64,000 nt of DNA from the human T2T-CHM13v2.0 reference genome, Homo sapiens, in NCBI RefSeq assembly GCF_009914755.1, contig NC_060925.1, one strand, 5' to 3'. This document shows positions 52,981 through 55,487 of the stretch, piece after piece. Position 1 is the stretch's first letter. Each line of letters starts with the position of its first letter. The position numbers and the translations under genes were made by a program. A model generated the notes under the pieces. The model ran no database searches, was not told the origin of the DNA, and saw only the letters and a list, made by a program, of their open reading frames with translations.

Positions 52981-53788
52981 GGCCTGTATTCCAGTGCACA
53001 GTTGAAACCACCTTTGCAAAAACTGTGACAGTGAGAGAAATCTAACATAACTAATTCCATCTGACTTGTAATCTCACAAACTATTCTTGCTCATTCCTGG
53101 GCGTAGGCTATGGGAGGAATTTAGTTTACAGTTTAACTTTAAAACAAAGTCGTTTCCTGAAACTAACCTCCTCCTTGCTCAGGGACTTAAACTGCCTTTG
53201 TAGAACTCCACAAGGTTAGAATTATGGTTCAGGAGTTATGTAGCCAGAGGTAACAAGAATTAACCTCCTCAATTGCTCCTATAGATAGCATCACTATTGT
53301 AAAAACTAAAACTGGTGTTTGAGGTGTTTTTCAGACCTTGCATTTTGATGGACCAGGTGGTGCCACCTGGACTGGTAGCCATACCAATAAATTGGCTCAA
53401 CTGGTCTTGTGACCCCTACCCAAGAACCAACTCAACATGACAAGAGAACTTCAACCGCCTGTAATTTTATCTCTGACCCAACCAGTCAGCATCCCTCATT
53501 CCCTAGCCACCTGCCCACCAAACTATCCTTGAAAAACCTTAGCCTCTGAATTCTCAGAGAGGTAGATTTGCGAAACATCTCCCACCCTTCAGCTTGGCTG
53601 GCACTGTGATTATTAAACTCTTTCTCTACCGCAACTCCTGCTGTTCTCAGTGTTTGGCGCTTCTGGGCAGCAGGCAAGATGAACCCACTTGGGTGATTAC
53701 AGGGTGCTCAGGCACAGTGGTGGCCAACCTTACATATGAAATTCTGCCTCCTTTAATCTGGATGCTGCTGGTGCCCATCATATTATTG
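52981..53788 (+). pseudogene. Paralog exon 6, split by a solo LTR (52981-53002 and 53702-53788)
   Basis: ccccag|GGCCTGTATTCC ... CSGTVVANLTYEILPPLIWMLLVPIILL|gtgagt; 22+87 = 105+4 nt. Confidence 0.92.
53003..53701 (+). mobile_element. LTR8-family (LTR8A-like) solo LTR inside paralog exon 6
   Basis: TGAAACCACCTTTGCAAA...GAACCCACTTGGGTGATTACA; ATTAAA at 53612-53617. Confidence 0.85.
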
Positions 53789-54466
53789 GTGAGTAAGAAA
53801 TATGACTTCACTATAAAAATGCATTCACTTTGGGTACATATAAGATTAATTTTAGGTTTGGGGAGCAAAGAAAGCAGATGTTTATGTAAATTACAAGTTT
53901 TAGCAGTTTTCAAGTTCATTAATTCTTTATCTTTACTTTATCCTACTGATCCAGAGGGTACAGCATGTGGGAATTTATTTTGCACTCTTGTTTGTACCAT
54001 ACAGTGTTCTCTGAGGCAATATACCTCAGCAGGTGCCACCAGGTGTAATGCAATTATCTTTGCACTTAATGTCTTCCATCAGCTGGACTTGCTTCCCTCA
54101 TGTTGGCTGCCTGACTTTGAGAAACACAGAAATGTGAGACCTTGGGAACATCAGGAACTGCCTTTCTTTTAGAAATTATTTTCCAACATGGGTTCTTCAG
54201 GAAAGTAGTTATTCTGCAAGATGTCAGTAGGTAATAAAAAAAAGCAAGCAAGCAGGGAATAAAGAAAGAAAGAGGAAGGAAGGGGAAGGGAAAGAAAGAG
54301 GCATAGTGGAGAAGTAGAAAGGGGAGCAAGGGAAGAAAGAAAAAAAGAGAGAGAGAAACAGAAAGAAAGAGCAACAGAGAAAGAAAGAGAGAAAGAAAAG
54401 AAAGAAAGAAGAAAGAAAGAAAAAGAAAGAAAGAAAGAAAGAAGGAAGGAAGGAAGCAAGGAAGGA

Positions 54467-54762
54467 GGCCGGGCGCAGTGGCTCACGCCTGTAATCCCAG
54501 CACTTTGGGAGGCCGAGGCGGGTGGATCACGAGGTCAGGAGATCGAGACCATCCTGGCTAACACGGTGAAACCCTGTCTCTACTGAAAATACAACAAAAA
54601 TTAGCCGGGCGCGATGGCAGGCACCTGTAGTCCCAGCTACTCGGGAGGCTGAGGCAGGAGAATGGCGTGAACCTGGGAGGCAGAGCTTGCAGTGAGTGGA
54701 GATCGCGCTACTGCACTCCAGCCTGGGTGACAGAGCGAGACTCTGTCTCAAAAAAAAAAAAA
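54467..54762 (+). mobile_element. AluY embedded in purine-rich (GAAA/GGAA)n tracts spanning about 54240-54925
   Basis: GAGACCATCCTGGCTAACACGG and GGCGTGAACC diagnostics. Confidence 0.9.
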
Positions 54763-55428
54763 GGAAGGAAGGAAGGAAAGAAGGAAGGAAGGAAGAAGGA
54801 AGGAAGGGGGGAGGGAGGGAAGGAAGGAAGGAAGGAAGGAAGGAAGGAAGGAAGGAAGGAAGGAAGGAAGGAAGGAAGGAGGGAAGGCAGGCAGGCAGGC
54901 AGGCAGGCAAGCAGGAAAGGAGGAAAATTTCCATAGGAATTTTTCTTTAACTGTGGAACTTGCCAAGATCTTTACTATGCTAGTATCATGTTACCATGTG
55001 TGAATCCCTAAGATGGGGATAGAAGATACAGTGTATCCCAAATGCATTCAAACACAGACTCCTTTTTTGAGGACATCTTGTGGCCAGAATGCTCTATGAA
55101 AACACTGGGGGAACTGTTCCTAAAAGGTAAAGGCTTCTGTATATCTTTACTGTTGTTGTAATATTCCTCCTTTTCAACAAAGCTTAGACAAAAGATTAGA
55201 AAGGAATATGCTGACACATCAATAGCATTGCCTCCTAATGCTGGGACCTTGTATACATTTTTAGGTTCCTGTAACATTTTTTGTACTTTCCAAATATCTA
55301 CAATTAACATGCATTTGTTATTATATCCTAAAATAATTAAATAAAAATTATGTTTTTATGACCCTGGTTACACTAGCAAAAATGTTGCTAGTTCTTAATG
55401 GGTAACTTATCTTTCTTCCTTTGCTCAG

Positions 55429-55487
55429 CTGTACTTTTCCTGGTGAATTCTTTCACAGCAACACCTTACAATGGAGCAGAAGTGTTA
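55429..55487 (+). pseudogene. Paralog exon 7 (+2 nt frameshift)
   Basis: ctcag| ... NSFTATPYNGAEVL |gtaagt versus [14 protein letters not shown]. Confidence 0.88.

What the first reader, a model, noticed from the sequence alone, without database searches (positions are those of the whole stretch)
52981..55487. The paralog looks like a long-functional gene lost later, not a dead-on-arrival copy
Seen: exon 6 is only about 70% identical in DNA, yet has no indel or stop apart from the LTR. It keeps 23 of 35 amino acids, 12 of those 23 codons differ synonymously, and most replacements are conservative hydrophobic swaps (LIWMLLVPIILL versus [12 protein letters not shown]). Exon 7 keeps TPYNG.E.L. 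Inference: purifying selection acted on both copies for a long time, so a second 3-ketosteroid/17beta-reductase may still be intact in other mammals.
Basis: partly seen in the sequence, partly recalled or inferred. Interest (0 to 1): 0.8.

Follow-up and report, generated by a model that had tools for sequence, protein, structure and literature searches.

The report
Ancient HSD17B7 twin, dead in humans
Just downstream of the human steroid/cholesterol enzyme gene HSD17B7 lies the wreck of a second, very old copy that evolved like a working gene for a long time before decaying, and whose apparent counterpart still looks intact in elephants and manatees.

Summary
Exon 6 of the copy is 72.5% identical in DNA to HSD17B7 exon 6. 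It keeps 23 of 35 residues, and 12 of those 23 codons differ synonymously. Two details were missed: one codon is lacking at the LTR junction, and exon 7 carries a 2-nt frameshift.

The two exons belong to a colinear tandem duplicate of the whole gene (window about 33.8-63.5 kb). Exons 1, 2, 4, 5, 6, 7 and 8 were found. They carry 13 small indels and 4 stops, and the catalytic Tyr and Lys are lost.

Gene-versus-copy dN/dS is 0.30 over 246 codons (bootstrap 95% CI 0.20-0.44). A copy dead on arrival should give at least 0.5, which 0.4% of resamples reached.

'HSD17B7-like' proteins of manatee and Asian elephant are intact. They group with the human copy at 98/91 for the full length and 100/100 for exons 5-9. 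A paenungulate-only or primate-age duplication is rejected.

Several rough clocks, including the LTR's age, put loss of constraint at about 0.09-0.14 substitutions per site, against about 0.3 or more since the duplication.

Synteny and nucleotide-level branch tests in other mammals could not be done here.

The parts
33821..63479 (+). Extent of the old tandem duplicate of the HSD17B7 locus (unit about 32 kb; source copy about 1546-26867)
   Evidence: Colinear non-repeat blastn matches, gene to copy: 1546-2132 to 33821-34414 (61.6%); 7087-7434 to 39218-39568 (79.2%); 12359-12512 to 43661-43814 (81.8%); 14285-14586 to 47090-47377 (70.0%); 18020-18177 to 53709-53862 (69.3%); 19902-20083 to 58611-58790 (66.1%); 26543-26867 to 63150-63479 (60.9%). 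The weakest matches (about 60%) are only possible homology. 33821-34414 is not a dispersed repeat: it has 2 places in the genome.
36800..37400 (+). Surviving CpG island at the copy's promoter and exon 1
   Evidence: GC is 0.60-0.67 and CpG observed/expected 0.73-0.82, against 0.21 for the window and 0.83 at the HSD17B7 promoter. It overlaps the RefSeq 'enhancer' 37148-37753 in the hub's table.
37253..37286 (+). Copy of exon 1 (start codon kept, 1-nt deletion)
   Evidence: 27 of 34 bases identical; the GT donor is kept.
39365..39564 (+). Copy of exon 2 (1-nt and 3-nt deletions; acceptor AG changed to GG); probably gene-converted
   Evidence: 168 of 200 bases identical. The 120 nt upstream are 82% identical, while every other flank is 59-71% against about 60% for shuffled controls. 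Residues V24, H45 and T47 match aye-aye HSD17B7.
43670..43784 (+). Copy of exon 4 (no indel, one TAG stop, both splice sites kept)
   Evidence: 95 of 115 bases identical; dN/dS 0.27.
47113..47296 (+). Copy of exon 5 (five indels: -13, -1, +7, -1, -3); catalytic Tyr is now Gly and Lys is now Arg
   Evidence: 138 of 177 bases identical. The YSSSK motif reads GSSPR.
52981..52996 (+). Copy of exon 6, 5' piece
52997..53702 (+). Solo LTR-type insert splitting exon 6 (ends may be 52995-53701)
   Evidence: 2908 candidate copies in the genome. Ends mapped against four copies. K2P distance to 21 copies is 0.244, and its own branch is 0.11-0.13.
53703..53788 (+). Copy of exon 6, 3' piece; GT donor kept
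   Evidence: Exon 6 in total: 74 of 102 bases identical, 23 of 35 residues, no stop, one codon short at the junction.
55429..55487 (+). Copy of exon 7 (2-nt insertion; both splice sites kept)
   Evidence: 38 of 57 bases identical. It reads VNSFTATPYNGAEVL, like the afrotherian gene's VNSFTMTPYNGAEVL.
58666..58762 (+). Copy of exon 8 (indels +1, -2, -1; three stops in the gene's frame)
   Evidence: 68 of 96 bases identical.
17995..18887 (+). HSD17B7 exons 6 (17995-18099) and 7 (18831-18887), the reference for the comparison
   Evidence: Hub gene table; translation checked.

Best explanation
Window 33.8-63.5 kb is the decayed tandem twin of the whole HSD17B7 gene.

A duplication of about 32 kb, which also copied the tail of DDR2, happened before the living placental mammals diverged. 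The twin then evolved as a protein-coding gene under purifying selection for more than half of the time since the duplication. Its counterpart is still an intact 'HSD17B7-like' short-chain dehydrogenase in elephants and manatees.

In the lineage to humans it lost constraint roughly 0.09-0.14 substitutions per site ago. That is about the time an LTR landed in exon 6 (0.11-0.13). It has since collected frameshifts, stops and loss of the catalytic Tyr and Lys.

Its 5' part (exon 2 plus 120-150 nt of intron 1) was later overwritten by gene conversion from HSD17B7.

Shown here: the anatomy, the lesions, the low dN/dS and the tree placement. Inferred: single origin with the afrotherian gene, the dating, and the enzymatic function of the intact twin.
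For: Anatomy:
- Seven of nine exons lie in order, and 13 of 14 splice dinucleotides are kept.

Selection:
- Sd 71 and Nd 92 over 246 codons give pS 0.41, pN 0.16 and dN/dS 0.30.
- Bootstrap CI is 0.20-0.44, and 0.4% of resamples reach the dead-on-arrival floor of 0.5. Exons 5-8 alone give 0.29 (2.1% of resamples reach 0.5). Exons 6+7 give 0.16 (0.3%).
- Differences by codon position are 50, 40 and 78 over 250 codons.
- Exons are 67-84% identical. Their intron flanks are 59-71% against about 60% for shuffled sequence, except upstream of exon 2.

Intact relatives:
- P0019 and P0026 carry TGxxxGxG, WTSS and YSSSK, and reach Pfam adh_short at 97 and 75 bits.
- They are 91.3% identical to each other (272 of 298). 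The canonical manatee and elephant proteins are 88.3% identical (295 of 334). So the twin is at least as constrained as the canonical gene.

Trees:
- Copy + P0019 + P0026 is supported 98/91, and the 31 eutherian HSD17B7 99/93 (42 rows).
- On exons 5-9 the copy + P0019 + P0026 clade gets 100/100, with a stem of 0.13.
- AU rejects the two LIKE genes joining paenungulate HSD17B7 (delta lnL 47, p 0.0005). It rejects the copy joining primate HSD17B7 (p 0.006 on exons 5-9; p 0.033 on the full length).
- At 6 of 13 sites where both LIKE proteins differ from all 13 sampled eutherian HSD17B7, the copy has the LIKE state.

Clocks for the neutral phase:
- 53 of 250 residues are unique to the copy. That fits k of about 0.11-0.12 in a decay simulation.
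- The LTR's own branch is 0.11-0.13.
- Total per-lineage dS is 0.30 (0.39 for exons 5-8).
Against: - AU tests do not reject the copy lying outside the LIKE clade with the 31 eutherian HSD17B7 (p 0.386 full length; p 0.0595 exons 5-9).
- All 6 LIKE-type states shared by the copy at the strict diagnostic sites are retained ancestral states, also seen in marsupials or monotremes. They are not shared novelties. At 4 of the 13 sites the copy has an HSD17B7 state, and at 3 it has neither.
- The copy is a long branch (0.48; 0.68 on exons 5-9), so attraction to the long LIKE stem cannot be excluded.
- The groups tested by AU were named after the first tree was seen.
- Exons 3 and 9 were not found, so the codons compared may be the better-kept ones.
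- dS for exons 6+7 is saturated (pS 0.62).
- Among the best 120 of 465 hits to the twin's C-terminal half, only 2 are twin-type and both are paenungulate. If the human copy died as late as the clocks suggest, many other lineages must have lost it independently, or the clocks read too young.
- The intact proteins are gene-model predictions, and their DNA was not seen.
Confidence: 0.8

Rival explanations
1. Independent origins. The human copy and the afrotherian 'HSD17B7-like' genes come from two separate old duplications, or the human copy branches just outside that clade. The afrotherian genes then say nothing direct about the human copy. It would still be old and once selected.
For: AU does not reject the copy grouped with the 31 eutherian HSD17B7 and the LIKE genes outside (p 0.386; p 0.0595). 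There is no strict shared-derived residue among the 13 diagnostic sites. Synteny was not tested.
Against: Clade support is 98/91 for the full length and 100/100 for exons 5-9. Over exons 5-8 the copy is 70.9% identical to P0019 against 61.9% to human HSD17B7. One duplication is more parsimonious than two at the same locus. At residues 160 and 172 the copy's codons are one step from the LIKE state (alignment; the codon reasoning is my inference).
Confidence: 0.12
2. Dead on arrival. The copy never worked, and its exon similarity reflects gene conversion from HSD17B7 and chance in short exons.
For: Exon 2 does look converted: 84% identity, an upstream flank at 82%, primate-like residues, dS 0.31 and dN/dS 0.46 with a CI reaching 1.02. 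Exons 6 and 7 are only 52 codons.
Against: Conversion lowers dS and dN together, so it cannot give high dS with low dN. Exons 5-8 have dS 0.79 and dN 0.23, and 2.1% of resamples reach 0.5. All codons together give 0.4%. The flanks of exons 4-8 are at the shuffled level, so those exons were not recently overwritten. The copy keeps ancestral residues that all sampled eutherian HSD17B7 have lost.
Confidence: 0.04
3. Non-coding constraint. The exon-like pieces are kept because they now serve as regulatory DNA or as exons of a non-coding RNA, not because of past protein function.
For: The exon 1 region is still a CpG island and is listed as a RefSeq enhancer (hub table). 13 of 14 splice dinucleotides survive.
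Against: The excess of third-position and synonymous differences (50, 40, 78; dN/dS 0.30) is a signature of coding constraint. Indels and stops are spread over 6 of the 7 exons. No transcript evidence was available here.
Confidence: 0.04

Closest known systems
HSD17B7 (3-ketosteroid reductase / 17beta-hydroxysteroid dehydrogenase type 7), the neighbouring gene at window 4938-27387
   Same: Same exon structure and order. DNA identity is 67-84% per exon and protein identity 68% (168 of 246). The source locus is immediately upstream.
   Different: The copy is broken: 13 small indels, 4 stops, an LTR in exon 6, catalytic Tyr and Lys lost, and exons 3 and 9 undetectable. In exons 7-8 it keeps ancestral residues (VNS, GAE, L269, Q273, L292, N298) that canonical eutherian HSD17B7 lost.
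'HSD17B7-like' of Trichechus inunguis (P0019) and Elephas maximus (P0026), names as given by NCBI in the protein database
   Same: These are the nearest relatives of the human copy: 71.5% and 68.7% identity, and clade support of 98/91 and 100/100. Each is on the same chromosome-scale contig as that species' HSD17B7.
   Different: They are intact and carry the full SDR motifs. Their function has not been assayed. I found no paper on them: 'HSD17B7-like' gave 0 papers.
Other human HSD17B7 copies: the chr10:38.40-38.43 Mb segmental duplication and the chr1:247.26 Mb retrocopy (I recall these as HSD17B7P2 and HSD17B7P1; the names come from no call)
   Same: All are non-functional relatives of HSD17B7 in the human genome.
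   Different: The chr10 copy is young (97-98% identical). It covers window 7.2-34.4 kb and stops before the old twin. The chr1:247 Mb copy is intronless and of canonical type, with [12 protein letters not shown] and the primate C-terminal tail. Neither derives from the twin.

Membership tests
Unprocessed (duplicated) pseudogene of HSD17B7 | Keeps the parent's exon-intron layout, in order, next to or apart from the parent | tested here: met
   Exons 1, 2, 4, 5, 6, 7 and 8 are colinear over 21.5 kb, and 13 of 14 splice dinucleotides are kept.
Unprocessed (duplicated) pseudogene of HSD17B7 | Disabling lesions that exclude a full-length product | tested here: met
   Frameshifts in exons 1, 2, 5, 7 and 8, stops in exons 4 and 8, and an LTR in exon 6.
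Functional classical SDR (Pfam adh_short, HSD17B7 type) | TGxxxGxG cofactor motif and catalytic Ser, Tyr-x-x-x-Lys | tested here: not met
   The human copy reads XGVSSGID, WIXT and GSSPR where HSD17B7 has TGASSGIG, WTSS and YSSSK. P0019 and P0026 keep all of these motifs and reach adh_short at 97 and 75 bits against a cut-off of 26.6.
Orthologue of the paenungulate 'HSD17B7-like' gene | Forms a clade with it, to the exclusion of canonical HSD17B7 | tested here: inconclusive
   Support is 98/91 and 100/100 on exons 5-9. The AU test of the alternative gives p 0.386 and 0.0595. The exons 1-4 tree is unresolved.
Orthologue of the paenungulate 'HSD17B7-like' gene | Same genomic position (between HSD17B7 and CCDC190) | not testable with these tools
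   Only 'same contig as HSD17B7' is known, for Elephas (221.6 Mb contig) and Trichechus (209.7 Mb contig). No mammalian genome other than human is held.
Once-functional gene lost later (as opposed to dead on arrival) | Pairwise dN/dS to the surviving paralogue clearly below 0.5 | tested here: met
   0.30, CI 0.20-0.44; 0.4% of 5000 resamples reach 0.5.

The most novel reading that the evidence does not exclude
Placental mammals began with two HSD17B7 enzymes.

After the duplication, canonical HSD17B7 changed a block of residues in exons 7-8, while the twin kept the ancestral ones there. This might mark a division of labour between sterol 3-keto reduction and oestrogen activation.

The twin was then lost in most lineages, including ours, but is kept under selection in elephants and sea cows. 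That may be linked to their unusual sterol and bile chemistry; the only basis for this link is a recalled fact and one abstract in a search listing, PMC6296402.

In humans only the twin's promoter survives, as an unmethylated CpG-island enhancer.
Probability: 0.2. Interest if true: 0.7.

Novelty: new member of a known kind. Interest (0 to 1): 0.5.

Why it matters
HSD17B7 is treated as a single-copy gene that does two jobs: the 3-ketosteroid reductase step of cholesterol synthesis and the conversion of oestrone to oestradiol.

A second copy that was present and selected in early placentals, and is still intact in elephants and manatees, changes how the evolution of those two activities should be read. 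It also offers a natural experiment, because two enzymes can be expressed and assayed side by side.

For human genome annotation it explains three things. One is an unannotated run of exon-like pieces. Another is a RefSeq 'enhancer' that is really the dead twin's CpG-island promoter. The third is a patch of gene conversion next to a disease-relevant gene.

As a phenomenon, old duplicate loss is ordinary.

Tried and rejected
- Exons 3 and 9 of the copy: the best local alignments scored 12 and 11, below shuffled controls (maxima 22 and 17). A tblastn-style hit that seemed to extend exon 4 upstream into exon 3 residues is only intron read-through.
- A retrocopy made from the twin, which would have shown past germline expression: none was found. 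The own-genome search with P0019 returned only the canonical gene, the chr10 duplicate, the canonical-type retrocopy at chr1:247 Mb, the twin's own exons, and weak unrelated SDR hits.
- The database protein P0001, 100% identical to the copy's exon 2, is an open frame reading through the flanking introns on a 1002-base contig. It is not evidence of splicing or expression.
- P0013 ('-like', Loxodonta) and P0070 ('-like', Chrysochloris) are not twins. P0013 is canonical apart from an inserted stretch in place of exon 3, which I read as intron retention; it was not put in a tree. P0070 falls among the afrotherian canonical HSD17B7.
- A target-site duplication for the LTR: none is recognisable.
- Literature: seven searches. 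I saw search listings, titles and abstract starts only, and opened no paper. None concerns this locus or a second HSD17B7 gene.
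Full report
WHAT IS THERE

The finding's interval, 52981-55487, runs from the first base of an exon-6-like piece to the last base of an exon-7-like piece of HSD17B7.

I translated the annotated HSD17B7 coding exons and searched the window with the protein. That gave colinear hits downstream of the gene:
- exon 2 at 39380-39568 (E 4e-21)
- exon 4 at 43668-43790 (2e-13)
- exon 5 at 47113-47296 (5e-4)
- exon 6 at 53702-53791 (2e-7)
- exon 7 at 55437-55490 (0.005)
- an MRKVVLVT start at 37253

blastn added exon 8 (58611-58790). It also added weak colinear matches from the tail of DDR2 (1546-2132 to 33821-34414, 61.6%) to the end of intron 8 (26543-26867 to 63150-63479, 60.9%). 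The 33.8-kb piece is not a dispersed repeat.

Exact exon boundaries, identities and lesions come from anchored alignments:

| Exon | Window position | Identical bases | Lesions |
|---|---|---|---|
| 1 | 37253-37286 | 27/34 | -1 |
| 2 | 39365-39564 | 168/200 | -1, -3; acceptor AG changed to GG |
| 4 | 43670-43784 | 95/115 | TAG stop |
| 5 | 47113-47296 | 138/177 | five indels |
| 6 | 52981-52996 + 53703-53788 | 74/102 | LTR insert; one codon short |
| 7 | 55429-55487 | 38/57 | +2 |
| 8 | 58666-58762 | 68/96 | three indels, three stops |

Exons 3 and 9 could not be found. The catalytic YSSSK motif reads GSSPR. This is a dead gene.

THE OBSERVATION

23 of 35 residues are kept in exon 6, and 12 of those 23 codons differ synonymously. 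DNA identity is 72.5%, and the quoted peptide strings are correct.

Two details were missed. The exon is one codon short exactly at the LTR junction, and exon 7 has a 2-nt frameshift.

The insert is an old LTR-type repeat with at least 2908 candidate copies in the genome.

WAS IT EVER A WORKING GENE?

The two copies share one genome and one neighbourhood. The pairwise dN/dS is therefore the mean of the gene's branch and the copy's branch. If the copy had been neutral from birth, the value could not fall below 0.5.

Observed values:
- All 246 comparable codons: 0.30 (Sd 71, Nd 92). The bootstrap 95% CI is 0.20-0.44, and 0.4% of resamples reach 0.5.
- Exons 5-8: 0.29, with 2.1% of resamples reaching 0.5.
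- Exons 6+7: 0.16, with 0.3% reaching 0.5. Here dS is saturated.

Differences fall 50, 40 and 78 on codon positions 1, 2 and 3.

Exons are far better kept than their intron flanks. The flanks sit at the level of shuffled sequence, 59-71% against about 60%, except upstream of exon 2.

Gene conversion cannot explain high dS together with low dN. Dead on arrival is therefore rejected.

Caveats:
- The NG86 method is simple.
- Exons 3 and 9 are missing from the sample.
- Alignment in the indel-rich exons 5 and 8 favours identity.

AN INTACT COUNTERPART

I searched the protein database with the copy's exon 2, then with the manatee protein, then with its C-terminal half.

Two twin-type entries came up:
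- P0019, 'HSD17B7-like' of Trichechus inunguis (329 aa; a cluster of 7 members)
- P0026, 'HSD17B7-like isoform X3' of Elephas maximus

Each lies on the same chromosome-scale contig as that species' canonical HSD17B7.

In the C-terminal-half search they are the only twin-type proteins among the best 120 of 465 hits. The next best hits are marsupial proteins (81-86%), ahead of every eutherian HSD17B7.

Both keep the SDR motifs and match Pfam adh_short. They are 91.3% identical to each other, against 88.3% for the canonical manatee and elephant proteins. That argues for continued selection.

TREES

I used 42 rows: 31 eutherian HSD17B7, 3 marsupials, 2 monotremes, 2 amphibians, 1 fish, the 2 LIKE proteins, and the human copy read with X at its breaks. 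I chose these from the 128 proteins then held, leaving out isoforms, partial sequences and unnamed entries.

Full length:
- human copy + LIKE proteins: 98/91
- eutherian HSD17B7: 99/93
- both together, inside mammals after the marsupials: 97/83

Exons 5-9 only:
- human copy + LIKE clade: 100/100
- The clade's position relative to marsupials and monotremes is unresolved (86/69).

Exons 1-4 only: no resolution. The copy sits nearest primate and colugo HSD17B7, and the LIKE genes sit nearest elephant HSD17B7.

AU tests:
- LIKE genes joining paenungulate HSD17B7: rejected, p 0.0005.
- Copy joining primate HSD17B7: rejected, p 0.006 on exons 5-9 and 0.033 on the full length.
- Copy with all eutherian HSD17B7, LIKE genes outside: not rejected, p 0.386 and 0.0595.

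These groups were named after I had seen a tree, and the copy is a long branch.

Site by site, there are 13 positions where both LIKE proteins differ from all 13 sampled eutherian HSD17B7. The copy has the LIKE state at 6, an HSD17B7 state at 4, and neither at 3. All 6 matches are ancestral states also found in marsupials or monotremes.

The firm statement is therefore that both the copy and the LIKE genes left the HSD17B7 line before the crown placental HSD17B7 diverged. A single duplication that makes them orthologues is the most likely reading, but it is not proven.

CONCERTED EVOLUTION OF THE 5' PART

- Exon 2 of the copy is 84% identical to the gene. Its upstream 120 nt are 82% identical, while all other flanks are at background.
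- Its residues V24, H45 and T47 match aye-aye HSD17B7.
- In the afrotherians, residue 39 is Cys in both elephant copies and Gly in both manatee copies.
- Identity between the paralogues is higher in exons 1-4 than in exons 5-8: 89.8% against 77.6% in elephant.

Gene conversion around exon 2 explains why identity differs along the copy, and why the full-length AU test is weak.

WHEN DID IT DIE?

All figures are in substitutions per site on the human lineage.

| Measure | Value |
|---|---|
| Per-lineage dS since the duplication | 0.30 (0.39 for exons 5-8) |
| LTR own branch, from pairwise K2P to 21 copies; no consensus built, and the copies were picked from the best matches, so slightly biased low | 0.11-0.13 |
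| Residues unique to the copy among 19 compared sequences | 53 of 250 |
| Neutral divergence at which a decay simulation reaches that fraction | about 0.11-0.12 (5-95% of runs span roughly 0.08-0.15) |
| Stops | 4, compatible |
| Neutral phase implied by dN/dS, taking omega 0.2 for working copies (my assumption) | about a quarter of the branch; 0-60% over the CI |

So constraint was lost at about 0.09-0.14, close to the LTR's arrival. Before that the copy spent over half of its history as a selected gene.

In years I can only use a recalled calibration: about 0.17 on the human lineage since the split from rodents, from the mouse genome paper, not opened here. That would place the loss in early primates or shortly before.

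That dating implies independent losses in other orders, because no intact twin is annotated outside paenungulates. Alternatively the clocks read too young and the loss was earlier.

COMPARISON WITH WHAT IS KNOWN

The object is an unprocessed pseudogene of HSD17B7. It is not in the RefSeq table supplied.

It differs from the young chr10 segmental duplicate, which stops at window 34.4 kb, before the twin. It also differs from the intronless canonical-type retrocopy at chr1:247.26 Mb.

Seven literature searches found nothing on a second HSD17B7 gene or on this locus. I saw listings and abstract starts only. 'HSD17B7-like' occurs in 0 papers of the library. Subscription journals and supplements were not seen.

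VERDICT

The kind of thing, an old duplicate lost in most lineages, is ordinary. The particular case is apparently unreported. It matters moderately for steroid and sterol enzyme evolution and for annotation of this locus.

Noticed in passing
window 36800-37400: The dead twin's exon 1 sits in a CpG island that has not decayed. GC is 0.60-0.67 and CpG observed/expected 0.73-0.82, against a window mean of 0.21. It coincides with the RefSeq 'enhancer' 37148-37753. A CpG island that outlives its gene suggests the promoter is still unmethylated and active in the germline.
   Followed up: partly
window 39218-39568 (against 7087-7434): Probable gene-conversion tract from HSD17B7 into the twin, covering the end of intron 1 and exon 2. 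The upstream flank is 82% identical where all other flanks are at background. The residues are primate-like. The same 5' homogenisation is seen between the two elephant genes and between the two manatee genes.
   Followed up: partly
window about 7200-34414; G000:C10:38402301-38429514: The young chr10 segmental duplicate of HSD17B7 (97-98% identical) extends about 7 kb past the gene's 3' end, into the start of the old duplicate. It ends before the twin's exon 2.
   Followed up: partly
L006 (G000:C1:247254000-247263999), about 4318-5331: An intronless retrocopy of canonical HSD17B7 covering residues 1-341, with many stops and frameshifts. It is of canonical type, not twin type.
   Followed up: yes
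window 47297-47335 (against 14502-14540): The first 39 nt of the intron after exon 5 match at 35 of 39 bases, better than the exon itself (alignment). This may be a conserved splicing or regulatory element, or a short conversion patch.
   Followed up: no
proteins P0047 and P0019 (Trichechus inunguis): In the manatee the canonical copy (P0047, also labelled '-like') has the longer branch, 0.11-0.14 against 0.03-0.05 for the twin. It shows unusual residues in exons 6-8. Constraint may have shifted between the two copies there.
   Followed up: no
window 17995-18099 (HSD17B7 exon 6): Human HSD17B7 itself carries several residues not seen in the other 12 eutherian sequences aligned: N219, A221, A226, A246 and L248. 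L248 equals the state of the twin and of the afrotherian genes. This may be coincidence or an old conversion in the other direction.
   Followed up: no
window 54240-54930: Intron 6 of the twin holds an Alu element flanked on both sides by long GAAA/GGAA-type microsatellites. These lie inside the finding's coordinates but have no bearing on it.
   Followed up: no
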